Shown here: piece after piece, positions 3,461 through 13,264 of the stretch
How positions within the stretch are numbered: the first letter of the stretch is position 1
How the letters are laid out: every line of letters begins with the position of its first letter
Assembly (NCBI GenBank): GCA_038321865.1
Contig: JBBQFH010000053.1
Location: 1 to 13,264 of the forward strand
Length of the DNA stretch: 13,264 nt
Reading direction: 5' to 3'
DNA from: Gemmatimonadales bacterium
GTDB lineage: Bacteria > Gemmatimonadota > Gemmatimonadetes > Gemmatimonadales > GWC2-71-9
The notes under the pieces: generated by a model
What the model saw: the letters and a program-made list of their open reading frames with translations, nothing else
What the model was told of the DNA's origin: nothing
Database searches by the model: none
Made by a program: the position numbers and the translations under genes

Positions 3461-3720
3461 CAGCGCGTGGTCCCGGCGACATCAATGATTCGCATCAGCG
3501 CGCGTCCTCCGGGCCCCCATGAATATGCATCCGGTGAATCGAGCCGGTGTTGGTGCTGATGAACCGGAACCGCAGCATCTCACCCACTTCCATCCACATG
3601 ATGCAGGTTGACGGGCACGCCTCGCCGTCGATCGTAAAGTAATTAGGCTCGGCGCTGGGCATGCGCATGGCGGGATACGTCAGATCCTCCCACTTCAGCC
3701 ATTCCTGCAGCCCGATGATT
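3460..3720 (-). pseudogene. Degenerate multicopper oxidase remnant (C-terminal cupredoxin domain, internally deleted and frameshifted)
   Basis: LQEWLKWEDLTYPAMRMPSAEPNYFTIDGEACP...MEVGEMLRFRFI...IHRMHIHGGP resembles the NYFTINGK...HPMHIHG segment of small multicopper oxidases. A second frame at 3510-3460 reads GGRALMRIIDVAGTTR-stop, like an MCO C-terminus. The HCH copper motif and the N-terminus are missing. Confidence 0.7.
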
Positions 3721-3860
3721 GGAGTCGTCTCCACGGTTTCCTGGCTCCGTACGAGCCAGAGTGGGACGAAAAACACGATGGTGCTCCCGGCGAAGCTGCT
3801 CGGGCACTTTCGCCGGCCGGGGCAGCAATCGTCGTCCGCCCGGTGGCGTTGTTGGGTCGC

Positions 3861-3889
3861 TTGCCAACCCGCGCGCGGCGCCACATTCT
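3861..3889 (+). promoter_or_regulatory. Possible sigma70-type promoter for the HxlR-family gene
   Basis: TTGCCA (3861-3866), a 17-nt spacer, then CATTCT (3884-3889), about 40 nt upstream of ATG 3931. The -10 match is weak. Confidence 0.3.
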
Positions 3890-3930
3890 CCTGGTATGAA
3901 TCAGTGGATCCCACCCGAAATCGTCAACGC

Positions 3931-4293
3931 ATGACCGATAGCCCCGCCGAGATTCCCGCATGTGGCTGCAGCACGCCCGGGTCCGCGGCCGCAGCGACGT
4001 GTTACTGCGGCGTCGACGATCTGCTGCGCATCATCCGTCGCCGGTATTCGCTCGCCGTCCTCGACGCGATCCATACCCGGGGCACCGCACGCTACCATGA
4101 CGTCGCGTCCGCGCTGCCGCAGGTGAGCAGCTCGACGCTCGCCGAGACCCTGCATGCGCTGGCCAGCGCCGAGCTGGTGATCCGCCGCGATCTGTCCCGT
4201 ACCGCGGGTCCCCACACGACCTACACGCTCACGCCCTCGGGCACCAAGCTGCTCAACCGGCTGCGCAACCTCCTGGAGGAAGTCCGCCCCTAG
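3931..4293 (+). CDS. HxlR/DUF24 (MarR-like winged helix) transcriptional regulator with Cys-rich N-terminus
   Basis: CYCGVDDLLRIIRRRYSLAVL...ARYHDVASALPQVSSSTLAETLHALASAELVIRR...PHTTYTLTPSG fits the HxlR pattern. The start is more likely ATG 3931 than 3661, since the longer ORF overlaps the MCO remnant. Confidence 0.85.
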   Translation: MTDSPAEIPACGCSTPGSAAAATCYCGVDDLLRIIRRRYSLAVLDAIHTRGTARYHDVASALPQVSSSTLAETLHALASAELVIRRDLSRTAGPHTTYTLTPSGTKLLNRLRNLLEEVRP

Positions 4294-4294
4294 C

Positions 4295-4318
4295 GGCACT
4301 TCGGGCTGCCGAAGTGCC
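4295..4318 (+). terminator. Perfect 10-bp stem hairpin directly after the HxlR stop (possible terminator or operator)
   Basis: GGCACTTCGG-GCTG-CCGAAGTGCC begins 2 nt after the TAG. Only a short CTT follows, so there is no strong U-tract. Confidence 0.5.
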
Positions 4319-4418
4319 CTTGCGCGCCCTCTCGGTGCCCGGTACCCTGCAACAGCATGCATCTCGATGGACGGGCAGCAGTTGGGCCCGCGGACAGCAG
4401 GCCGACACGAGGTATCGG

Positions 4419-5723
4419 ATGGCCACGACCGCAGCTCCTCACCAGCTCAAGCCCAGCCAGCCTTCGATTCCCCAGACTGAACCGGAGCCGAAGGCGCAAC
4501 GCCTTCCTTTGGGCCCTCTGCACACCATACACGTCTTCTGGATTGCCGGCATGAGCTGCGACGGCTGCAGCATCTCGGTCACCGGCGCCACCAATCCCGG
4601 CATCGAGGGACTTCTCACCGGCACCGTTCCGGCGATGCCCAAGGTCATCCTGCACCATCCCGTCCTGTCGGTCGAAGCCGGCGAAGCCTTCACCCAGCCG
4701 TTCAAGGACGCGGTGGCCGGGACGCTCGGCGCGCCGTACGTCGTCGTCATGGAAGGATCGGTCGCGGACGAGCGGATCGCCGCTCGCACCGGCGGATACT
4801 TCTCGGCCATGGGCATGGAGGCGATAAACGACGGCGACGAATCCCATCCGGTGCCGACAGCCACCTGGCTCAAGCGAATGGCACCCGGCGCCGCCGCGAC
4901 GATCGCCATCGGTACCTGCGCCACGTGGGGCGGCATTCCCTCGGCGGACGGCAATCCGACCGGGTCGATGAGCGTGATGGATTTTCTCGGCAAGGATTAT
5001 CGAAGCGCGTTCGGCCTTCCCGTGGTCAACATCCCGGGGTGTGCGCCCGTCGGCGACAACTTTACCGAGACCGTCTTCGCGATCCTGCTCTTCCTCCAGG
5101 GCCTGGGCCCGTTACCCACGTTCGACGAGCTGGGCCGGCCCGCGTGGCTGTTTGCCGAGACGGTCCACCGCGGCTGCACCCGCGCGGGATATTACGAGGA
5201 AGGCGTATTCGCCAAGGAGTACGGCGATCCGGAATGTCTGGTCGAGATTGGCTGCTGGGGCCCGGTGGTGAACTGCAACATCGTGAAGCGTGGGGCGATC
5301 AATCACATGGGCGGCTGCATGGAAGCGGGTGGGGTGTGCATCGCGTGCACGATGCCCGGTTTCCCGGACAAGTTTTCGCCATTCTACAAGGCGCCGCCAG
5401 GTGCGCTGTTCTCGACCGCGGCATCCGTAACGGTTGGCGCCGTCATCCGGCGGCTCCGCCGCCTCAGCAACCGCCACGCAAACCGGGAGGTTCGCTGGGA
5501 CCGGCGCGATTTCGTGCCGAGCGGCTGGGGCAATCTCGAGGCGCAGACGCCGTCGCTCCAGGTGATGGAACTGTTTTATCAGAAGTGGCAGCACTTCCGC
5601 GCCAAGAAGCCCGGCCGGCCGCCCGGCACCGAGGAGTGGCTGTGGGGCGCAGATCGGCCCGGCCTTTCGAGCGACTACCACGATCGCAGCGCCACGCTCG
5701 AGGATTCCGATGACCGACGCTGA
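4419..5723 (+). CDS. hylS: [NiFe]-hydrogenase small subunit, group 1l (Hyl)-like, related to group 1h
   Basis: FWIAGMSCDGCS, IAIGTCATWGGIP, VNIPGCAP, TVHRGCTRAGYY, CLVEIGCWGPVVNC, GGC...GGVCIACTMPGFPDKF supply three Fe-S ligand sets. Start ATG 4419 follows RBS GAGGT (4409-4413). No Tat RR motif. The subgroup is inferred from gene layout and motifs. Confidence 0.9.
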   Translation: MATTAAPHQLKPSQPSIPQTEPEPKAQRLPLGPLHTIHVFWIAGMSCDGCSISVTGATNPGIEGLLTGTVPAMPKVILHHPVLSVEAGEAFTQPFKDAVAGTLGAPYVVVMEGSVADERIAARTGGYFSAMGMEAINDGDESHPVPTATWLKRMAPGAAATIAIGTCATWGGIPSADGNPTGSMSVMDFLGKDYRSAFGLPVVNIPGCAPVGDNFTETVFAILLFLQGLGPLPTFDELGRPAWLFAETVHRGCTRAGYYEEGVFAKEYGDPECLVEIGCWGPVVNCNIVKRGAINHMGGCMEAGGVCIACTMPGFPDKFSPFYKAPPGALFSTAASVTVGAVIRRLRRLSNRHANREVRWDRRDFVPSGWGNLEAQTPSLQVMELFYQKWQHFRAKKPGRPPGTEEWLWGADRPGLSSDYHDRSATLEDSDDRR

Positions 5724-6012
5724 GCTCTGGAGCGCGTGGCGGCTCTGGATGGGCGTGGCGATTGCCGTCGTGCTCATCGCGGCAGGACTGCTGATCACGA
5801 TCTGGCTCACCGCGCGCAGCATCCGCACGCATGCCGTGCGCGCGCTGCACGCCGCCGAGCGGATCCGGGCGCAGACGCAGCCGATCTGGGGGCTGCAGAC
5901 CACCAACGACGTCGCGGTCGAGTTGCTCGCGACGGTGCGGAGCATCGAGGCGAAGGGCGGCAAGCTCGCCGAGGCCCTCGAGAGCCATACCGGCGCGGCG
6001 GGAACCCGGTGA
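5710..6012 (+). CDS. Hydrogenase-associated short single-TM protein 1 (HylTM-like)
   Basis: TM LWMGVAIAVVLIAAGLLITIWL followed by an amphipathic helix. RBS GAGGA at about 5700; overlaps the small-subunit stop. Confidence 0.8.
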   Translation: MTDAELWSAWRLWMGVAIAVVLIAAGLLITIWLTARSIRTHAVRALHAAERIRAQTQPIWGLQTTNDVAVELLATVRSIEAKGGKLAEALESHTGAAGTR

Positions 6013-6028
6013 TGCGGAGACATAGCCC

Positions 6029-6361
6029 ATGAGCGCGCCAAGCGCGGACGCGGTGACGCATCTCTGGATCACGACGCTCGTCATCTACGGAGTCGTGCTG
6101 ATAGTGGTGGCGGTGCTGCTGACACTCATCGTGCACGCCGCCCGGCAGATCAAGGCCGGCGTCTCGGCCATCTGGACGGTGGGCCAGAAGATCGCGAACA
6201 ACACCATTCACATCCCGCTGCTCGACACGACCAATCGCGTGGCCGGTGAGATTCTCGCATCCGCCGGCGGCGTCGTGGGCGCGACCGCCGCCATCACGGC
6301 CCACGCGGAGGGCTGCCCCGGCTGCCCCACATGCGTCATCGGGCCACGGTGGGCCTCATGA
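6029..6361 (+). CDS. Hydrogenase-associated short single-TM protein 2 (HylTM-like), C-terminal CxxCxxC
   Basis: TM LWITTLVIYGVVLIVVAVLLTLIV, a helical region, then HAEGCPGCPTC. RBS GGAG at about 6017. Confidence 0.8.
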   Translation: MSAPSADAVTHLWITTLVIYGVVLIVVAVLLTLIVHAARQIKAGVSAIWTVGQKIANNTIHIPLLDTTNRVAGEILASAGGVVGATAAITAHAEGCPGCPTCVIGPRWAS

Positions 6362-6675
6362 ATACGATGGTGCTGCTCACGCTGATTTCGGTGGTCGGGG
6401 CCGCTGCGCTGTTCATCGCACTCGCGGTGTACCTGCTGCTGATCATTGCCGAACTCGAGAGCATTGGCGGGGAGCGCAAGGCGTACGGCAGCCCGTCCAG
6501 CTTCCTCTCGAAGATCCGGCTTGGAGTGCGGGCCATCGAGACGCAGACCGGCGGGCTGGCCCCCAAGGTCACCGCGCTCAACGGCGGGCTCGCTGCAATC
6601 CGGGACGGGCTCCGCGCAATCGACGACAATCTCGCCGGCCTGATCGCGGCGGTCTCACGGCAGGTGCTCAAGTGA
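6358..6675 (+). CDS. Hydrogenase-associated short single-TM protein 3 (HylTM-like)
   Basis: ATG 6358 overlaps the previous TGA (ATGA). TM VLLTLISVVGAAALFIALAVYLLLII, then heptad-like VTALNGGLAAIRDGLRAIDDNL. Confidence 0.8.
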   Translation: MNTMVLLTLISVVGAAALFIALAVYLLLIIAELESIGGERKAYGSPSSFLSKIRLGVRAIETQTGGLAPKVTALNGGLAAIRDGLRAIDDNLAGLIAAVSRQVLK

Positions 6676-6983
6676 GCGAGGAAGCGGCCGTGTTCCCGCC
6701 CGCGGTCTACACGATCTGGTGGATCGGCCTCATCGTCACGCTGGTCGTGTTCGTGCCGCTCGCGGTCTACCTGCTGCATCGCACCTGGCGCAACGCGCGG
6801 TCAATCCAGGGGTATGCCGCAGATACGCTCGCCGCCGCCGCCGGCATCGCCGCCAACACGAGCAATATCGTGGCGCTCGACACGACCATCGGAGTGGCGA
6901 CGGAAATTCTGGGTACCGCGGGCGCGGTGGCCGCCAAACTCGACACCACGGCGAACGTGCTGGCCGGCCGGGCGGAGGGCTGA
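6672..6983 (+). CDS. Hydrogenase-associated short single-TM protein 4 (HylTM-like)
   Basis: GTG 6672 overlaps the previous TGA (GTGA); this is the C-terminal part of track ORF 6246..6983. TM IWWIGLIVTLVVFVPLAVYLL, then a helix similar to proteins 1 and 2. Confidence 0.8.
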   Translation: MSEEAAVFPPAVYTIWWIGLIVTLVVFVPLAVYLLHRTWRNARSIQGYAADTLAAAAGIAANTSNIVALDTTIGVATEILGTAGAVAAKLDTTANVLAGRAEG

Positions 6984-6986
6984 CCG

Positions 6987-7250
6987 ATGCTGCTGACCCT
7001 GACGCTCATCACCGTCGCACTCGTCGTCCTCGCGCTGGCCGGATTTCTGATCGCCATCGCGTGGGCGCTGCTGCAGGCAAAGCGCAGCGTGGCCGCCATC
7101 GCGGACGGGCTCGAAGCGGTGGACGGCCACACGCGCCCGCTGCCCGAGAAGCTCGCGACCATCAACGGCGCGCTCGGCGCGCTGCTTGACGGGCTCAGGG
7201 TGGCCGACGGCCATCTCGGTCGCGCCGCGACCGTGTTCAAGCTCAACTAG
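6987..7250 (+). CDS. Hydrogenase-associated short single-TM protein 5 (HylTM-like)
   Basis: TM LLTLTLITVALVVLALAGFLIAIAWALL, then a helix similar to protein 3 (LATINGALGALLDGLRVADGHL). Confidence 0.8.
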   Translation: MLLTLTLITVALVVLALAGFLIAIAWALLQAKRSVAAIADGLEAVDGHTRPLPEKLATINGALGALLDGLRVADGHLGRAATVFKLN

Positions 7251-7264
7251 CCGGCGGGGGACGC

Positions 7265-9163
7265 ATGTGCTTCAAGAATCTGCCGATCGATTTCGACTCG
7301 GCGGGAAAGCCTTTCCTTCGCGGCGGCGTGGCCGATCCATACAGCCAGGCGACGGCCGCGCCGATCGGCGCTCCGACGCAGCTCACCGCCGAACGGGTCG
7401 AGGACCTGCTCCGGCGGAACGGGCACATCAAATCGGTCGACTTCGATCCGGTCACGCGCGTCGCCGGCGCGCTCGCCTTCCATACCGTGGCCGACCTCAA
7501 GGCGCGCCGGGTGCTCGAGGCGCGTTCGGTCGCGACGCTGTTCCGCGGGTACGAGGTCATCATGATCGGCCGCGATCCGCGTGATGCGATCTTCATCACG
7601 AGCCGGGCCTGCGGGGTCTGCGGCGGCGTGCACGGCACCTGCTCGGCGCTCGCAACCGAGATGGCGATCGGCTGCTGCCCGCCGCCGCTCGGCGTCCTCA
7701 TCCGCAACCTGATGCTGGCGCTGGAGTTCCTCTACGACAATCCGCTCCATCTGCATCTGCTGGCGGGCCCGGATTACTCGCAGGCAATCGTCGAGCCGAC
7801 CAATCCGTCGCTATATGCTCGCGCGCAGAAGACCGAGGCGCCGCATGCGGAGGTGCACGGGTATCGCACGATGGCGGACCTGATGACGGACCTCAACCCG
7901 CTGACGGGGAAGCTCTACCTCGAGGCGCTCCACATGACGCGGGTGGCACGCGAGGCGTACGTGCTGATCGCGGGCAAGTATCCGCACCCCCAGACAATCG
8001 TGCCCGGCGGCGTGAGCTCGACGATCACGCTGACCGTCATGAACGAGATGTTCCTGCGGCTGGCGCAGTTCTTCGATTACTCGAAGAAGATCACCGGCAT
8101 CTGGGACGACATCACCGATTTCTTCTACGAGGCCGATCCGCAGTACATGAAGGTCGGCGCCCGCCGCGCGCACCTCATCGACACCGGCATCTTCGACGAC
8201 CCCGACGCATACGATGCGACGTACGCCAATGCCGCCGCATGGGGCAATCGCCGGTGGGCCACGCCCGGCGCGATCGTCGATGGCCAGCTGGTGACGACGG
8301 ACCTCCACCGGATCAACATGGGGATCGAGGAATTCGTCGACCATTCCTTTTACGAGGGATGGACCGGCGAGGGCCGGACACCGCATTTCCCAACCGACAG
8401 CGAGGGCAACCCGCTGTCGCCGCATCACCCTTGGAACAAGATCACGAAGCCAAGGCCGCAGGGACAGAACTGGAAAGAGAAGTACACCTGGGACACAACG
8501 CCGCGGTGGGACCGAAACGCGATGGAGGCCGGCTGCTACGCGCGGCTCTGGAACACGGCCGTCGCGCAGCAGCTGCCGGACAACCCGTTCATCGAAGCGA
8601 CCGGCCACTCGCTCAAGGTGCGAATGCCGCGCGGCGCGTTGCCGGAGATGGAGCTGGAGTGGCACGTGCCGAAGGTCTGGAACGCGTTCGAGCGTAACCG
8701 CGCTCGCGCGCATTGTGTGGCGTTCACGGCGATGGTCGCGATGAACAACTGGCTCGCGGCGATGGACCGCATCAAGAACGGCGACCTCCGGACCAGCACG
8801 AAGTTCGATATTCCCCAGAAGGGCGAGCGGGTGGGCGTCGGTTTCTGGGGCGCCGGCCGGGGATACCTCACGCACCATCTCGTACTCGACCGCGGGGCCG
8901 TCTCCAACTATCAGATCGTGACGCCGTCCACCTGGAACGCTTCACCAACCGACGCGTGGCAGCAGCCGGGGCCCTACGAGGAGGCGGTGCTCAACACGCC
9001 GCTGCTCGAGGAGAGCGATGACCCGGCAAAGTTCCGCGGCATCGACATCCTGCGCGCCATCCGGAGCTTCGATCCCTGCATGCCGTGCACCACGCACATC
9101 CAGTCCGAGGGGGGGATGATCACGCGCGAGGTCAACACCTGCGCCTGCGGGCTCGACGGCTGA
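7265..9163 (+). CDS. hylL: [NiFe]-hydrogenase large subunit, group 1l (Hyl)-like
   Basis: L1 motif SRACGVCGGVH (about 7601-7633), L2 motif SFDPCMPCTTH (ends 9097), plus DPVTRVAG, FRGYE, GRDPRDA, GKYPHP, YQIVTPSTWN, GPYEEA. A 21-aa extension follows the L2 His. Both motifs use Cys, so this is not a [NiFeSe] enzyme. Confidence 0.95.
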   Translation: MCFKNLPIDFDSAGKPFLRGGVADPYSQATAAPIGAPTQLTAERVEDLLRRNGHIKSVDFDPVTRVAGALAFHTVADLKARRVLEARSVATLFRGYEVIMIGRDPRDAIFITSRACGVCGGVHGTCSALATEMAIGCCPPPLGVLIRNLMLALEFLYDNPLHLHLLAGPDYSQAIVEPTNPSLYARAQKTEAPHAEVHGYRTMADLMTDLNPLTGKLYLEALHMTRVAREAYVLIAGKYPHPQTIVPGGVSSTITLTVMNEMFLRLAQFFDYSKKITGIWDDITDFFYEADPQYMKVGARRAHLIDTGIFDDPDAYDATYANAAAWGNRRWATPGAIVDGQLVTTDLHRINMGIEEFVDHSFYEGWTGEGRTPHFPTDSEGNPLSPHHPWNKITKPRPQGQNWKEKYTWDTTPRWDRNAMEAGCYARLWNTAVAQQLPDNPFIEATGHSLKVRMPRGALPEMELEWHVPKVWNAFERNRARAHCVAFTAMVAMNNWLAAMDRIKNGDLRTSTKFDIPQKGERVGVGFWGAGRGYLTHHLVLDRGAVSNYQIVTPSTWNASPTDAWQQPGPYEEAVLNTPLLEESDDPAKFRGIDILRAIRSFDPCMPCTTHIQSEGGMITREVNTCACGLDG

Positions 9164-9169
9164 CGACCG

Positions 9170-9724
9170 GTGCGCACCATCATCGCGGGGATCGGCTATC
9201 GAAACCTCCGCGACCACTCGGTGGGACCGCTGCTGGTGGACCGGCTGGCAGGCCAACGTTGGCCCGACGGTGTGGCCGTCGAGGATCTGAGCTACGGCCC
9301 GATCGCGGTGGTGCAGCGCTTCGAGGATGACCCTTTAGACCGCCGCTTTGACCGGGCGGTGGTCGTTTCCGCCGTCCAGCGCGACCGCGAGCCGGGGTCT
9401 CTGACGGTATACCGGTGGGACGGCGTGCTTCCTTCCGAAGAGGGAGTGCAGCGCGCCGTGGTCGATGCCGTCACCGGCGTGATTTATCTCGACAACACGC
9501 TGGTGGTGGCGCGACATTTCCGTGCGCTGCCGGCCGAGGTGATCGTGATCGAAGTCGAGCCGATTCTGCACGAGTTCGGCGACGGGTTCAGCCCCGCGGT
9601 CGCCGAAGCGTTCGAGACGATGTGCCGGCTGGCCCGAACGCTCGCAACCGATTGCGCGTCCGGCGAGGCCATCCCGGTCGCTGGCCTGGGTGGCGGCTCC
9701 CCCGCCGCGACGACTGCGCCGTGA
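9170..9724 (+). CDS. Hydrogenase maturation protease homologue 1 (HybD/HycI fold, divergent)
   Basis: GTG start. MRTIIAGIGYRNLRDHSVG...VEDLSYG...AVVVSAV...PGSLTVY...LPAEVIVIEVEP...GFSPAV matches the fold, but canonical metal ligands are altered. Confidence 0.8.
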   Translation: MRTIIAGIGYRNLRDHSVGPLLVDRLAGQRWPDGVAVEDLSYGPIAVVQRFEDDPLDRRFDRAVVVSAVQRDREPGSLTVYRWDGVLPSEEGVQRAVVDAVTGVIYLDNTLVVARHFRALPAEVIVIEVEPILHEFGDGFSPAVAEAFETMCRLARTLATDCASGEAIPVAGLGGGSPAATTAP

Positions 9725-10569
9725 CCGATTCGGCCGAGACCCGCCAGGACCTGCTCGACGAAATTGGCGAACTGGTTACGGCGCTCGAAGCGCACCCCGA
9801 TGCGACCGTCCGCGAGCAGGTGACCGCGCTGCTGCAGGGTGTGGACGCGGTCCATCGTGTCGCGCTCACCCGCCTTCTCGAAGCAATCCAGGGTCTCGCC
9901 GGCGAAGCATTCGTGAATCGGCTCACCGCCGATCCGGTGATCCGCCTGCTGTTCATGTCCTACGACCTCATCGCCGTCGATCGCCGCATCCAGACCGAGG
10001 AGGCACTCGACGCGGTGCGCGGGCATCTCCACGCGCACGGCGTCGACGTCGAGCTGCTGGACGTGGTGGGAAGCGTGGTGTACGTCAAGCTGCACGGCCT
10101 TGGCGCGAGCGGCATCGCGCCGGACGCCGTGCGGCACGATCTCGAGGAGGCGCTGCGCCATGGGCTCATCGGCTTCCACGAGCTTCAGATCGGAGACCGG
10201 CAGACGGGCGCCGGCGGACTGGTGCAGCTCGGCGGCAAGCGGCCGCTCCGGGCGCCGGTGTATCGCCGGGTGCTGGACGCCGGCGCGCTCCTCCCGGGAT
10301 CGATGGAGGCAGTGGATCTCGACGGAGATCCGGTTCTCATCGCGAACGTCGACGGCGAGTTCTACGCCGTGTCGAACCGCTGCGGGGAGAGCCCGCTGCC
10401 GCTGCACTTCGGCACACTCGCGGGCGCCGAGCTTGTCTGCAGCTGGCACGGCTGCCGGTATGACCTGCGGTCGGGGCGGCGGCTCGACGGCGGCAGCGAC
10501 CGCCTCACGGTGTATCCCGTCGCCGTGGCCGACGGCGAGGTGCGGGTCGCGGTCGGCGCGGAGGCATAG
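9721..10569 (+). CDS. NifU-like / Rieske-like domain hydrogenase accessory protein
   Basis: GTG 9721 overlaps the previous TGA. N-terminal helical region, NifU_C-like EEALDAVRGHLHAHGVDVELLDV, and Rieske-like VLIANVDGEFYAVSNRCGE...LVCSWHGCRYDLRSG...LTVYPV. Confidence 0.85.
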   Translation: MTDSAETRQDLLDEIGELVTALEAHPDATVREQVTALLQGVDAVHRVALTRLLEAIQGLAGEAFVNRLTADPVIRLLFMSYDLIAVDRRIQTEEALDAVRGHLHAHGVDVELLDVVGSVVYVKLHGLGASGIAPDAVRHDLEEALRHGLIGFHELQIGDRQTGAGGLVQLGGKRPLRAPVYRRVLDAGALLPGSMEAVDLDGDPVLIANVDGEFYAVSNRCGESPLPLHFGTLAGAELVCSWHGCRYDLRSGRRLDGGSDRLTVYPVAVADGEVRVAVGAEA

Positions 10570-10570
10570 C

Positions 10571-11050
10571 GTGCGGACGCTGATCGCCGGATTCGGCAAC
10601 GCGCTCCGGGGTGACGACGGCTTTGGCGTCGAGGTGATCCGGCGGCTTCAGCTCGACGGGATCGAAGCGGGCGTGGAGCTCATGGATGTGGGGACCGGAG
10701 GAATCCGGCTCGCGCAGGAGTTGCTTACGCCGTATGATCGTCTGATCATCGTGGATGCGGTGAGCCGCGGCCAGGCGCCGGGAACGGTGTCGGTGGTCGC
10801 AATTGACGAGATCGAATCGGTTGCCGAAATCGACATGCACGTGGCAATTCCCGCGCGGGCACTCTCGGTGGCCAAGGCGCTCGGCGCGCTTCCGGCGGAG
10901 GTGTACATGGTGGGCTGCGAGCCGCTCGAGGTGGATGAGTTGCGCATCGACCTGTCGGCACCAGTGAGGGCCGCGGTCGAGATCGCGCTGCTGCGTGTGC
11001 ACGAGCTCGTGGCGCGGCCCGCAATGCCGGCGGGAGGCGCGGCGCGATGA
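10571..11050 (+). CDS. Hydrogenase maturation protease 2 (HybD/HupD family, canonical motifs)
   Basis: GTG 10571: MRTLIAGFGNALRGDDGFG...MDVGTGG...IIVDAV...APGTV...DMH...VGCEP...LSAPV. The Asp/Asp/His ligand set is retained. Confidence 0.9.
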   Translation: MRTLIAGFGNALRGDDGFGVEVIRRLQLDGIEAGVELMDVGTGGIRLAQELLTPYDRLIIVDAVSRGQAPGTVSVVAIDEIESVAEIDMHVAIPARALSVAKALGALPAEVYMVGCEPLEVDELRIDLSAPVRAAVEIALLRVHELVARPAMPAGGAAR

Positions 11051-11424
11051 GCGGCGACGGTCGCGAGATCGAGCGCCAGGACGAAGTCCTCGAGCTGCTC
11101 TACTGGCTCGAAGGCGAAGGGTTCGCCGGCGCGGCGACGCTCGAGAGCATCACTCGTTTTCTCGCCGACCCGGACCATCGGGTAGACGACACGCTGCGAC
11201 AGCTCATGAACCGGGGCGACGTCGTCCTCCACGAGGCGTCCGCCGAGTACAAGCTGACGGTGACGGGCCGGCGGGAAGCGGGCCGGCGGTTTGCGGAGGA
11301 GTTCAGTTCGATGCTGAGCCAGGGCCATGCCGAGTGCAATGACCCGGAATGTGACTGTCACACCAACCCCGCCGGCGCGGCGGAGTGCCATGCCGCGCGG
11401 GCGCACGGAGATCACCCACATTGA
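11047..11424 (+). CDS. Hypothetical winged-helix-like protein with Cys/His-rich C-terminal tail (putative metal binding)
   Basis: ATGA overlap with protease 2. DEVLELLYWLEGEGF...LRQLMNRGDV...YKLTVTGRREAGRRF is wHTH-like. Tail: GHAECNDPECDCHTNPAGAAECHAARAHGDHPH. Confidence 0.8.
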   Translation: MSGDGREIERQDEVLELLYWLEGEGFAGAATLESITRFLADPDHRVDDTLRQLMNRGDVVLHEASAEYKLTVTGRREAGRRFAEEFSSMLSQGHAECNDPECDCHTNPAGAAECHAARAHGDHPH

Positions 11425-12194
11425 TTCGCCTCGCCATTGCAGGGAAGGGCGGAAGCGGCAAGACGACGATCACCGGTACGCTCGCGCGCGTGCTCGCGCG
11501 GAGCGGCCGCACCGTCGTGGCCGTTGACGCCGACACCAATCCCAATCTCGCCACCACCCTCGGGATTCCGAACGCCGAAGCGCAGGCGATCACCGGATTG
11601 CCCCGGACGCTTCTGCAGCGCGAAACGCAGCCGGACGGCACCGCGAAGACCGTCTTCACCGAAGACGCGAACGAGGTGCTGAAGAAATACGGCGCCGTGG
11701 GACCCGACGGCGTCCGTCTCGTCGTCATGGGCAAGGTGAACCACGGCGGCGCTGGCTGAATGTGCGGAGCCCACGCCACGGTCCGTGGCCTTCTAGGTGA
11801 ATTGGTGGCGCTGCCGGACGATCGGGACATTCTGGTGGACATGGAAGCGGGCCTCGAGCATCTCTCGCGGGGGACGGGCAAGCACATCACGCAGTTCCTC
11901 GCGGTGGTCGAACCGTACTATCGCTCCATGGAAACGGCCCGGCGAATCGTCGAGCTGTCCGGCGAGCTCGGCATCGGCCAGGTACAGGCGATCGCGAACA
12001 AGGTGCGCAACGATGCCGACCACGACGCAATCGTGGCGTTCTGCGCATCGCACGGCATGAACATCGTCGCGGAAATTCCCTACGATTCCGAGCTGGCCGA
12101 TGCGGAACGGGTCGGCCAGCCCCCAATCGAACACGCACCGTATTCCCCCGCGATGCGCGCAATTCAGGAGCTGGCCACGGTGCTCGAGCGCTGA
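11421..12194 (+). CDS. cooC: CooC/AcsF-family nickel-insertion ATPase (MinD/SIMIBI), probable selenoprotein (TGA 11757-11759 = Sec, UxC motif)
   Basis: TTG start overlapping the previous TGA (TTGA). Deviant Walker A IAGKGGSGKTT, VDADTNPNL, LVVMGKVNHGGAG-[TGA]-MC, DMEAGLEHLSRGT, IANKVR, IPYD. Track ORFs 11385..11759 and 11760..12194 share a frame and are the two halves of one 257-aa CooC. Confidence 0.88.
11766..11793 (+). promoter_or_regulatory. Putative bacterial SECIS element
   Basis: Lies just 3' of the in-frame TGA. Lower stem GGAG/CTTC (11766-11769 / 11790-11793), a CCCAC bulge, upper stem GCCACG/CGTGGC (11775-11780 / 11784-11789), apex GGTC at +21 to +24 after the TGA. Confidence 0.7.
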
Positions 12195-12223: not shown

Positions 12224-13264
12224 ATGCCAGCATTTCGATCGTACCTCACGATTCTCTCGGCCACCGTCATCCTCGCCGCGCCGGGTTCGGCGCAGACGAT
12301 GCGGCTCGTCGGCCGCTCCGATCTCGGCGGCAAGGGCCTGAACGGCGCGGTGGCGGTGGTGGGAACCACGGCGATCGTGGGGGCCGGGATGATGCCGGCC
12401 GCCGGGGTACACGCGCACTTCTACAATCCGTATCCGTGCCCCGCGGTGGCGGTGAAGGTGGTGGACCTCTCGCAGCCGAGTGAGCCGCGCGTCGTCGCCA
12501 CGATTCCGGTGCCGGCCGGCGTCGTCGCGCAGGACGTGGCGGCACTGCGGGTGAAGTCGCCGGCGTTCACCGGCGATCTCGCCGCCATTGCGCTCGCGAT
12601 GTGCAGCGGCGCCGGCAGCGGCGTCGAGCGTGGCGTGGCCTACTACGACATCACCAACCCCGCGTCGCCGCAGCTTCTCGGCCGCTATCAGGCGGACAGC
12701 GACAACGTGAAGCCGGCCGACCTGCCGTGCGGACCCGCTCCCACCGGGGCCGACGACCGCTGCGCCGCGTCTCAGCACTCCGTCACGCTGGTCCAGCGAA
12801 CTGATGGGCGGGTGCTGTCGCTGTCGGTCGAACCCGGCGCGTCGGCATCAAAGTTTCCCTCGGGTGACCTCCGCGTCGTGGACGTGACCGATCCGCGCCA
12901 TCCGCGCCAAATCTCGTCATTTCCGCCGGCGGGCGAGCCGATTTTCTCCTCCAACGGGTGCCGGCCGTTTCGGGCGGCCCACAGTGTGGGCACCGGCCGG
13001 GGCGGCACGGTGGCCGTGCTGCCGTTCTACGACGGCGGCTTTTTTGTGCTCGATCTCACGCAGCCCGAGGCGCCGGCCACGATCGGGCGATTCGAGCTCG
13101 CGGCGGACCGCGGGCTGGAGGGAAACTTCGGCTACGCGGCCTACGCCGATCTGGGTAGCCGCCACCTGGCGCTCGTCTCGGAGCAGGACTGGATCGCACC
13201 AAAGACGACGCTCCGGATCGAGCGCCCCGCAGCACTCGCGGGCAGCCGCCCCGCGTGCGAGGCG
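12224..13264 (+). CDS. Secreted LVIVD-repeat (beta-propeller) protein, 5' part (runs off the right edge)
   Basis: Not in the ORF track because it has no stop in the window. ATG 12224 follows GGAG. Signal peptide MPAFRSYLTILSATVILAAPGSA|Q. Repeats: VKVVDLSQPSEPRVVATI, VAYYDITNPASPQLLGRY, LRVVDVTDPRHPRQISSF, FFVLDLTQPEAPATIGRF. Open for 347 codons to the window end. Confidence 0.85.
   Translation, partial: MPAFRSYLTILSATVILAAPGSAQTMRLVGRSDLGGKGLNGAVAVVGTTAIVGAGMMPAAGVHAHFYNPYPCPAVAVKVVDLSQPSEPRVVATIPVPAGVVAQDVAALRVKSPAFTGDLAAIALAMCSGAGSGVERGVAYYDITNPASPQLLGRYQADSDNVKPADLPCGPAPTGADDRCAASQHSVTLVQRTDGRVLSLSVEPGASASKFPSGDLRVVDVTDPRHPRQISSFPPAGEPIFSSNGCRPFRAAHSVGTGRGGTVAVLPFYDGGFFVLDLTQPEAPATIGRFELAADRGLEGNFGYAAYADLGSRHLALVSEQDWIAPKTTLRIERPAALAGSRPACEA

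What the first reader, a model, noticed from the sequence alone, without database searches (positions are those of the whole stretch)
11421..12194. Probable selenocysteine-containing CooC-family Ni-insertion ATPase hidden as a split gene
Seen: two adjacent same-frame ORFs are joined by a single TGA (11757-11759) in the context MGKVNHGGAG-TGA-M-C-GAH. Counting from TTG 11421, the TGA is codon 113 and the Cys is 115. Both halves are otherwise intact (Walker A GKGGSGKTT, DMEAGLEHLSRGT, NKVR, IPYD). Established: CooC proteins bind Ni/Zn at the dimer interface through a GxGCxC motif (Cys112/Cys114 in Carboxydothermus CooC1). Inference: the TGA sits exactly at the first metal-ligating Cys, the classic Cys-to-Sec signature, giving a UxC metal site. 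Pipelines would call this a pseudogene or two fragments. I cannot confirm from here whether hydrogenase-linked Sec-CooC has been described before.
Basis: partly seen in the sequence, partly recalled or inferred. Interest (0 to 1): 0.92.

Follow-up and report, generated by a model that had tools for sequence, protein, structure and literature searches.

The report
Selenocysteine nickel-chaperone ATPase in hydrogenase cluster
A gene that looks cut in two by a stop codon most likely encodes one intact nickel-handling ATPase with the rare amino acid selenocysteine at its metal-binding site, sitting in the gene cluster of a hydrogen-oxidising enzyme of soil bacteria.

Summary
Window 11421-12194 (+) is one CooC-type P-loop ATPase frame broken only by TGA 11757-11759 (codon 113). 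That column is Cys in 119 of 119 full-length homologues and aligns with Cys112 of CooC1, PDB 3kje.

It is not a singleton. At least 119 genome contigs from several phyla keep TGA there. So do 34 of 56 genes in a metagenome set fetched with peptide patterns that do not cover this codon.

A 6-bp hairpin with loop GUC (11775-11789) lies 21 nt after the UGA. It meets the published bacterial SECIS constraints, covaries, and is far more stable than synonymous-codon controls in TGA forms but not in Cys forms.

The host genome has selA, selB, selD and a tRNA-Sec. Contigs of four runs from four studies show the same TGA.

The gene sits in a group-1l-like [NiFe]-hydrogenase cluster. Nickel delivery to that hydrogenase is inferred, not shown.

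I found no Sec-CooC in the papers and catalogues searched. This scan has noted the same family before on other DNA.

The parts
11421..12194 (+). CooC-type (MinD/ParA-class) P-loop ATPase gene read through UGA113; 257 residues plus stop
   Evidence: Pfam CbiA 1.6e-18; 3kje E 6e-34; AlphaFold2 pLDDT 95.1, one domain; Foldseek top hit 3kje, TM 0.78/0.79
11442..11468 (+). deviant Walker A motif GKGGSGKTT (residues 8-16)
   Evidence: G8 K9 G10 G11 G13 K14 T15 T16 are invariant in alignment A4
11757..11759 (+). UGA read as selenocysteine (residue 113), first ligand position of the U-x-C metal motif
   Evidence: Cys in 119 of 119 homologues; TGA in 119 of 119 pattern loci
11763..11765 (+). Cys115 codon (TGC), second ligand position of the motif
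   Evidence: (Cys in all 121 rows aligned)
11775..11789 (+). SECIS-like hairpin: stem 11775-11780 with 11784-11789 (GCCACG/CGUGGC), loop GUC 11781-11783, 21 nt after the UGA
   Evidence: -9.1 against -4.28 kcal/mol for synonymous controls, p 0.01; covariation; consensus constraints
11047..11424 (+). upstream 125-aa ORF (P0122) with a conserved Cys/His-rich C-terminus; its stop overlaps the ATPase start; candidate metal-handling partner
   Evidence: a relative in 52 of 71 Sec loci of at least 5 kb; invariant H, C, D, P, C, C, C; weak support for binding, tested on a relative's pair
4314..5723 (+). [NiFe]-hydrogenase small subunit
   Evidence: (NiFe_hyd_SSU_C, Oxidored_q6)
5710..7250 (+). short ORFs with hydrophobic stretches between the small and large subunits (HylTM-like)
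   Evidence: gene order as described for group 1l in bioRxiv 10.1101/2020.08.06.239558
7265..9163 (+). [NiFe]-hydrogenase large subunit of Cys type (RACGVCGGVH ... DPCMPCTTH)
9170..11050 (+). maturation endopeptidase(s) (HycI/HupD family) and a NifU-like plus Rieske protein (HylE-like); overlapping ORF calls, exact starts not settled

Best explanation
The gene at 11421-12194 encodes one intact CooC-type ATPase. UGA 11757-11759 is decoded as selenocysteine by the host's SelA/SelB/SelD/tRNA-Sec system, directed by the hairpin at 11775-11789 in the coding sequence. This gives a U-x-C site where CooC1 has the Cys-X-Cys that chelates metal at its dimer interface.

Shown here: the recoding signature, namely conserved TGA, a Cys/Sec pair, a SECIS-like hairpin, the Sec machinery, and selection on both halves.

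Inferred: the protein dimerises on ATP and nickel like CooC1 and hands nickel to the large subunit of the neighbouring group-1l-like [NiFe]-hydrogenase. It may do the job HypB does elsewhere, perhaps together with the Cys/His-rich protein encoded just upstream. A selenolate ligand (more acidic, softer, and easier to re-reduce after oxidation) would suit metal transfer in aerobic cells. That last point is my own reasoning and was not tested.
For: 1. Cys/Sec pair. Codon 113 aligns with an invariant Cys in 119 of 119 full-length homologues and with Cys112 of CooC1.

2. Conservation of TGA.
All 119 are open on both sides.
- In sets not chosen by the codon, TGA was seen in 34 of 56 genes, 6 of 9 genomes with a match in the host's phylum sample, and 8 of 10 in a second phylum sample (2 of those 8 were already known carriers).

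3. Hairpin.
- For the 21-nt segment, 142 unique TGA forms average -9.06 kcal/mol against -4.26 for synonymous-codon permutations. 85% reach p<=0.05, and 139 of 142 have a stem of 5 bp or more.
- 24 Cys forms average -5.98 against -4.45, with 12% at p<=0.05 and 11 of 24 with such a stem.
- On 140 unique sequences, 85.5% of cells pair. There are 53 cells changed on both sides against 13.1 in shuffles (0 of 500 shuffles as high), and slid controls pair in at most 48.6%.
- The window's element meets all four constraints quoted from PMC13188914: 3-nt loop starting GU, 6-bp stem, 21-nt spacing, -9.1 kcal/mol.

4. Machinery. selA, the selB wing-3 domain, selD and a tRNA-Sec are in the host genome.

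5. Selection.
- dN/dS against 5 close TGA homologues is 0.09-0.22 upstream and 0.19-0.28 downstream of the TGA.
- 16 of 17 variant sites in four runs fall on third codon positions, and 7 of the 17 lie downstream of the TGA (positions worked out by hand).

6. One fold. The read-through model has pLDDT 95.1 and pTM 0.92, and its best solved match is CooC1.

7. Context.
- Among 71 TGA loci of at least 5 kb, 47 hold a relative of the hydrogenase large subunit, 45 the Rieske/NifU protein and 52 the upstream ORF.
- Two other loci have HypF and a Nik/Opp-type ABC transporter beside the gene.
- In 10 genomes with the TGA gene, HypD is found in 9, but HypB over its cut-off in only 2 and HypA in 3.
Against: - No protein-level evidence exists: no selenium, no peptide and no RNA run (one search lists no RNA holder).
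- Folding energy of the whole 48 nt after the UGA is no better than synonymous controls (mean z 0.02), and the window's own is worse (z +2.2). Only the local hairpin stands out.
- Rfam gave nothing there.
- Some Cys forms also carry a hairpin (stem of 5 bp or more in 11 of 24), so a hairpin alone is not diagnostic.
- selA is in 324 of 401 genomes of the phylum sample, so its presence in 6 of 6 TGA-bearing genomes adds little.
- In the host genome, HypD, which is essential, is missing as well as HypA and HypB (89.85% complete). Nothing about HypB replacement can therefore be read from this genome.
- No Ni-CODH (Prismane family) was found, so the classical CooC client is missing and the real client is only inferred from neighbourhood.
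- Relatedness inflates the covariation statistics.
Confidence: 0.88

Rival explanations
1. Split gene: translation ends at UGA 11757 and restarts at the ATG that follows at once (UGAAUG), giving two polypeptides that assemble into one ATPase.
For: In the window the codon after TGA is ATG, as in 76 of 140 unique TGA forms. Public gene calls start the C-terminal piece there: 118 of 119 best database hits begin MC[GS]AH.
Against: In 64 of 140 forms the next codon is not ATG (CTG 32, CTC 16, CTA 8, eight others), and Met, Leu or Lys is simply the usual x of CxC in Cys forms. A split would remove the invariant first metal ligand and cut a single compact domain between strand 99-102 and helix 115-130. 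It does not explain a covarying hairpin at a fixed distance, nor why the break always falls on the Cys codon.
Confidence: 0.04
2. The UGA is read through, but as an amino acid other than selenocysteine (for example Cys from a UGA-decoding tRNA, or near-cognate Trp or Cys).
For: No tool here can tell which residue is inserted. PMC13582414 mentions SelC*-type tRNAs (passage read), so UGA-to-Cys systems are in print.
Against: The genome has the full canonical set, including selA and selD, and a tRNA that ARAGORN calls Sec. The hairpin fits the SelB-type bacterial SECIS model. If Cys were inserted, nothing would oppose a TGA-to-TGY change, yet TGA is kept in the majority of close relatives.
Confidence: 0.05
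3. Recent nonsense mutation or assembly error: the gene is a pseudogene, or the TGA is not in the organism's DNA.
For: TGC or TGT to TGA is a single base change. The host genome is a 139-contig assembly.
Against: Four runs of four studies carry TGA while differing at up to 13 other sites. At least 119 genome contigs and 34 metagenome genes keep the same TGA. No frameshift or second stop appears in any of them, and dN/dS downstream is 0.19-0.28.
Confidence: 0.01

Closest known systems
CooC1 of Carboxydothermus hydrogenoformans (PDB 3kje, 3kjg, 3kjh, 3kji), the ATP-dependent nickel-insertion factor of Ni,Fe CO dehydrogenase
   Same: Same fold and length. phmmer E 6e-34 over residues 3-222; Foldseek top hit with TM 0.78/0.79 and 32% identity. 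Shares the deviant Walker A motif and a metal motif at the same position (U113/C115 against C112/C114).
   Different: Selenocysteine replaces the first Cys. No Ni-CODH gene was found in the genome. The neighbours are [NiFe]-hydrogenase genes.
CooC-type Ni-insertion ATPase/GTPase listed among genes of the group 1m [NiFe]-hydrogenase cluster (Ray et al. 2022, PMC9561532, passages read)
   Same: A CooC-type NTPase inside the gene cluster of a presumed high-affinity aerobic uptake hydrogenase.
   Different: That paper concerns group 1m of Actinobacteriota, and its main text has no word beginning 'selen'. Here the cluster has the group 1l layout, and the ATPase carries UGA.
HypB (G3E GTPase), the nickel-delivering NTPase of [NiFe]-hydrogenase maturation
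   Same: Same proposed job: a nucleotide-gated dimer with Cys ligands at the interface that passes nickel on (PMC3792862 Discussion; PMC9164220). HypB was found over its cut-off in only 2 of 10 genomes carrying the TGA gene, while HypD is in 9.
   Different: A different NTPase class (MinD/ParA ATPase, not G3E GTPase), with no hypB model match to this protein. It is not a family member, only a possible functional stand-in.
[NiFeSe] hydrogenases, and bacterial selenoproteins with a SECIS inside the coding region (for example FdhF)
   Same: UGA at a metal-ligand Cys position, followed about 20 nt later by a small hairpin with GU in the loop. Selenium would again ligate nickel.
   Different: Here the selenium sits in the chaperone, not the enzyme: the large subunit has DPCMPC, the Cys type. 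The family is absent from the selenoprotein tables in the main texts of PMC13188914 and PMC9312934.

Membership tests
Bacterial selenoprotein gene (Sec-UGA plus bSECIS) | In-frame UGA aligned with Cys in homologues | tested here: met
   Cys in 119 of 119 full-length homologues at column 113; aligns with Cys112 of 3kje
Bacterial selenoprotein gene (Sec-UGA plus bSECIS) | UGA-containing orthologues in other organisms | tested here: met
   119 of 119 pattern loci; 34 of 56 genes in a set not chosen by the codon; 6 of 9 and 8 of 10 matching genomes in two phylum samples
Bacterial selenoprotein gene (Sec-UGA plus bSECIS) | bSECIS: 3-9 nt loop with G in its first two positions, 4-16 bp stem, 16-37 nt from the UGA, MFE <= -7.5 kcal/mol (PMC13188914, Fig. 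2 legend) | tested here: met
   Loop GUC, 6-bp stem, 21 nt spacing, -9.1 kcal/mol; covariation
Bacterial selenoprotein gene (Sec-UGA plus bSECIS) | selA, selB, selC and selD in the genome | tested here: met
Bacterial selenoprotein gene (Sec-UGA plus bSECIS) | Selenium shown in the protein | not testable with these tools
   needs 75Se labelling or mass spectrometry
CooC (nickel-insertion ATPase) | Deviant Walker A motif xKGGxGK[ST] with the signature Lys | tested here: met
   AGKGGSGKTT at residues 7-16; invariant in A4; feature as described in PMC9164220
CooC (nickel-insertion ATPase) | Cys-X-Cys metal motif at the dimer interface | tested here: met
   U113-M-C115 aligns with C112-Y-C114. Sec stands in for the first Cys. 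Metal binding itself was not tested.
CooC (nickel-insertion ATPase) | Closest solved fold is CooC1 | tested here: met
CooC (nickel-insertion ATPase) | A curated family model names it CooC | tested here: inconclusive
   Pfam gives only CbiA/ParA/NifH-type domains. NCBIfam gives no hit over its cut-off. Sources name homologues 'CO dehydrogenase maturation factor' or 'CooC'.
CooC (nickel-insertion ATPase) | Works on, and is encoded with, Ni-CO dehydrogenase (cooS) | tested here: not met
   No Prismane/CooS match in the host genome at 89.85% completeness; the neighbours are hydrogenase genes
HypB (G3E GTPase) | Match to the hypB family model | tested here: not met
   No hypB hit for this protein; the only weak hypB-like match in the genome lies elsewhere
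Group 1l [NiFe]-hydrogenase cluster (Hyl) | Small and large subunits separated by short transmembrane ORFs, with a Rieske-type protein and an endopeptidase (bioRxiv 10.1101/2020.08.06.239558) | tested here: inconclusive
   The layout fits, but I made no hydrogenase phylogeny and no transmembrane prediction. I listed four ORFs, not five.

The most novel reading that the evidence does not exclude
The Sec-CooC ATPase and the Cys/His-rich protein encoded just upstream form a selenium-dependent nickel-insertion system. This system would replace HypB (and often HypA) for the oxygen-tolerant, high-affinity hydrogenases of aerobic soil bacteria. Atmospheric H2 oxidation in these lineages would then depend on selenium supply.
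Probability: 0.3. Interest if true: 0.85.

Novelty: new variant of a known kind. Interest (0 to 1): 0.74.

Why it matters
It would add a widespread selenoprotein family, the first in a nickel-chaperone NTPase, to aerobic soil phyla such as Gemmatimonadota and Acidobacteriota.

It would link selenium to the assembly of hydrogenases thought to consume atmospheric H2.

It also corrects annotation. 1207 database clusters match the C-terminal half at E<=1e-20 among proteins of 79-252 aa, and 118 of the 119 best begin at the Met right after the UGA. These genes are therefore filed as fragments and are missed in surveys of hydrogenase maturation genes.

Tried and rejected
- Whole-region folding (65 nt; 48 nt against synonymous permutations) showed no excess stability, so I dropped it in favour of the local hairpin test.
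- Rfam at E<=10 gave no match at the hairpin.
- 60 relatives of the host, including 5 genomes of the same genus, have no match at E<=1e-20. Close kin therefore gave no comparison.
- The look-up of sequencing runs listed no RNA holder. Expression was not assessed.
- The formate dehydrogenase model TIGR01553 gave only a weak N-terminal match without a stop in the host genome. I did not establish which other selenoproteins the genome has.
- Co-occurrence with selA is uninformative, because 324 of 401 genomes of the phylum sample have it.
- HypA/HypB absence in the host genome was rejected as evidence, because HypD is missing too.
- Literature: searches found no paper on a Sec-containing CooC. For the 20 papers I saw only the listing and the starts of the abstracts. 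No supplement of PMC13188914 could be read.
- One search was a mistyped parameter, corrected.

Full report
**Observation.** The window holds a 774-base frame (11421-12194, + strand) that table 11 breaks into two ORFs at TGA 11757-11759. Read through, it gives a 257-residue protein with the Walker A motif GKGGSGKTT, DMEAGLEHLSRGT, NKVR and IPYD. The TTG start overlaps the stop of the upstream ORF by four bases and matches where homologues begin.

**What the protein is.** Pfam sees only the general CbiA/ParA/NifH-type P-loop domains, and NCBIfam has no model over its cut-off.
- The best solved relative by sequence is CooC1 of Carboxydothermus hydrogenoformans (3kje, E 6e-34). In that alignment U113 falls on Cys112 and C115 on Cys114.
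- An AlphaFold2 model of the read-through protein is a single confident domain (pLDDT 95.1, pTM 0.92). Its best structural match is again 3kje (TM 0.78/0.79).

**Is the TGA a one-off?** No.
- All 119 full-length database homologues have Cys at that column. That search cannot see TGA forms, because gene callers split them.
Their record titles name Gemmatimonadota, Acidobacteriota, Verrucomicrobia, Planctomycetota, Armatimonadota, Deltaproteobacteria, Acidimicrobiia and others. In all 119 the frame is open on both sides as far as the DNA held goes.
- In sets not selected by the codon, TGA is the commoner state.
  - Metagenome loci fetched with peptide patterns elsewhere in the protein gave 34 TGA, 16 TGC and 6 TGT among 56 genes that my motif filter recognised in 55 of 80 loci. 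The other 25 loci, the more distant ones, were not classified.
  - In a 401-genome sample of the host's phylum, 9 genomes have a match at E<=1e-40 and 6 of those carry one TGA (one of the six is the flagged unpublished genome G188).
  - In a 401-genome sample of the phylum of an Acidobacteriota-titled carrier, 10 genomes match and 8 carry TGA (two were known carriers beforehand, one is the unpublished G456).
- On a FastTree of 248 near-full-length rows (107 Sec, 141 Cys, the Sec/Cys column masked) the label changes at least 25 times. 14 changes are forced by starred branches, against about 80 for shuffled labels. Rows dropped: fragments with fewer than 100 codons before or 130 after the site, and duplicates.
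- The window's nearest relatives (71% identity) are TGA forms.

**The hairpin.** Fifteen bases after the UGA lies GCCACG-GUC-CGUGGC (11775-11789).
- Folding of the wider region is unremarkable, so I tested the local element.
- I permuted synonymous codons within each gene. The 21-nt segment of 142 unique TGA forms averages -9.06 kcal/mol against -4.26 for the permutations; 85% are individually at p<=0.05, and 139 of 142 have a stem of 5 bp or more around the Val codon.
- The 24 Cys forms give -5.98 against -4.45, with 12% at p<=0.05 and 11 of 24 with such a stem. The window's own value is -9.1 against -4.28 (p 0.01).
- On an ungapped alignment of 140 unique TGA forms the six pairs are formed in 85.5% of cells. 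There are 53 cells changed on both sides against 13.1 in shuffles (0 of 500 shuffles as high), and every slid control pairs in under 49%.
- Typical swaps are ACG/CGU to GCG/CGC (pair 22-30: AU 84, GC 28, CG 5) and GCC/GGC to GCU/AGC (pair 21-31: CG 99, UA 11). A subset uses a helix shifted by one base on each side. The GU of the Val codon stays in the loop.
- The element meets the four constraints of the bacterial SECIS consensus as quoted in PMC13188914 (Fig. 2 legend).
- Relatedness inflates such statistics, and some Cys forms keep a hairpin. The hairpin therefore supports the reading but does not prove it on its own.

**Host and reads.**
- The host assembly (139 contigs, 89.85% complete) has selA, a SelB wing-3 domain in a 654-aa frame, selD, and a tRNA that ARAGORN calls Sec with anticodon tca.
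- Contigs of four runs from four studies cover 11757-11759 with no other letter listed there, while differing elsewhere.
- 16 of the 17 listed variant sites are third codon positions of the read-through frame, on both sides of the TGA (my arithmetic).
- dN/dS against five close TGA homologues is 0.09-0.22 for the first half and 0.19-0.28 for the second.
- The codon after TGA is ATG in only 76 of 140 unique forms. This argues against a general stop-restart arrangement.

**Context and likely function.** The window has the layout described for group 1l [NiFe]-hydrogenases (bioRxiv 10.1101/2020.08.06.239558, passages read):
- a small subunit;
- several short hydrophobic ORFs;
- a large subunit of Cys type (DPCMPC);
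- endopeptidase(s);
- a NifU/Rieske protein;
- a 125-aa ORF with a Cys/His-rich tail;
- the ATPase.

I did not build a hydrogenase tree, so the group assignment is by layout only.

- Among 71 TGA loci of at least 5 kb, 47 hold a relative of the large subunit, 47 the protease, 45 the Rieske/NifU protein and 52 the upstream ORF.
- In two Acidobacteriota-titled loci the gene lies between hypF and a Nik/Opp-type ABC transporter.
- No Ni-CO dehydrogenase was found in the host genome.
- In ten genomes carrying the TGA gene, HypD is present in 9, HypB over its cut-off in 2 and HypA in 3. This fits, but does not prove, a HypB-like role.
- The host genome itself lacks HypD too, so it says nothing on this point.

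**Comparison with what is known.**
- A CooC-type NTPase in an aerobic hydrogenase cluster is in print for group 1m (PMC9561532). That paper's main text has no word beginning 'selen'.
- The selenoprotein tables in the main texts of the 2026 review PMC13188914 and the 2022 review PMC9312934 hold no CooC, MinD, P-loop, NTPase, PF01656, ATP-binding or carbon monoxide entry.
- The main texts of deep-Sep (PMC12013277), the group 4 Sec-hydrogenase paper (PMC13582414) and the NTPase-metallochaperone review (PMC9164220) do not have it either.
- Full-text searches found no paper on it.
- Supplements of the 2026 review could not be read, and subscription journals are not covered.
- This scan has reported the same family on other genomes. 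One of those reports is marked 'part of it fell', without saying which part.

**Verdict.** The TGA is almost certainly a selenocysteine codon in an intact CooC-type ATPase (confidence 0.88). The link to nickel insertion into the neighbouring hydrogenase is a reasonable inference (about 0.6). It is a Sec variant of a known chaperone kind and, as far as I could check, an uncatalogued selenoprotein family.

**Claims that include flagged unpublished genomes.** None of the conclusions depends on them.
- The 6-of-9 count (G188).
- The 5-of-5 selA count (G188).
- The 324-of-401 selA tally (G188, G099).
- The 8-of-10 count (G456).
- One row (L129) in the scripts.

Noticed in passing
window 11047-11424 (+): A 125-aa ORF (P0122) with no Pfam or NCBIfam hit. 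Its C-terminus, QGH-x-EC-x-DP-x-CDCH...ECH...H-x-H, is conserved: H, C, D, P, C, C, C are invariant in 60 relatives. The DPxCxCH part recalls the DPCxxCxxH end of hydrogenase large subunits. The Atlas gives unnamed or 'transcriptional regulator' clusters and a MarR/IclR lead at 0.87. Complex prediction on the Cys-form pair of a relative (L131, not the window's own proteins) gave weak support: score 0.57 (runs 0.54-0.60), best of 3 controls 0.00, partner pLDDT at least 70, runs agreeing in at least 54% of contacts. The mark was reached by 116 of 157 solved complexes and 2 of 215 mismatches, but passes at 0.60 or under are more often wrong than right unless the guess was likely beforehand.
   Followed up: partly
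window 4314-11050 (+): A complete-looking [NiFe]-hydrogenase cluster with the group 1l gene order. It has two HycI/HupD-type endopeptidase matches (9170-9724, and the C-terminal part of ORF 10100-11050). An HxlR-type regulator at 3661-4293 has a relative next to the Sec-CooC gene in four Acidobacteriota-titled loci.
   Followed up: partly
L175:3333 and L175:4200 (metagenome locus): Two CooC-type genes in tandem, one with TGC and one with TGA at the motif. This is a Cys/Sec paralogue pair in one locus.
   Followed up: no
L148, L153, L155 and others; L168: A more distant Cys subfamily (motif GKPA-x-G-x-AG-x-GCMC-x-SHRAVRG) also carries a GC-rich hairpin at the same place. One member (L168) has TGA. 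This may be a remnant of, or a pre-adaptation for, Sec use.
   Followed up: no
window 11722-11755: In three of four runs the public contigs break and overlap just upstream of the TGA (table 8). The break falls in the most conserved stretch of the family. The likely cause is assembly-graph branching between strains or paralogues.
   Followed up: no
G000:C34:30718-30814: ARAGORN reports a tRNA-like gene of 97 nt with a four-base anticodon (cgag) and no assigned amino acid.
   Followed up: no
window 12224-13264 (+): The downstream ORF, with a weak LVIVD-repeat match, has relatives after the ATPase gene in 5 of 71 Sec loci of at least 5 kb.
   Followed up: no
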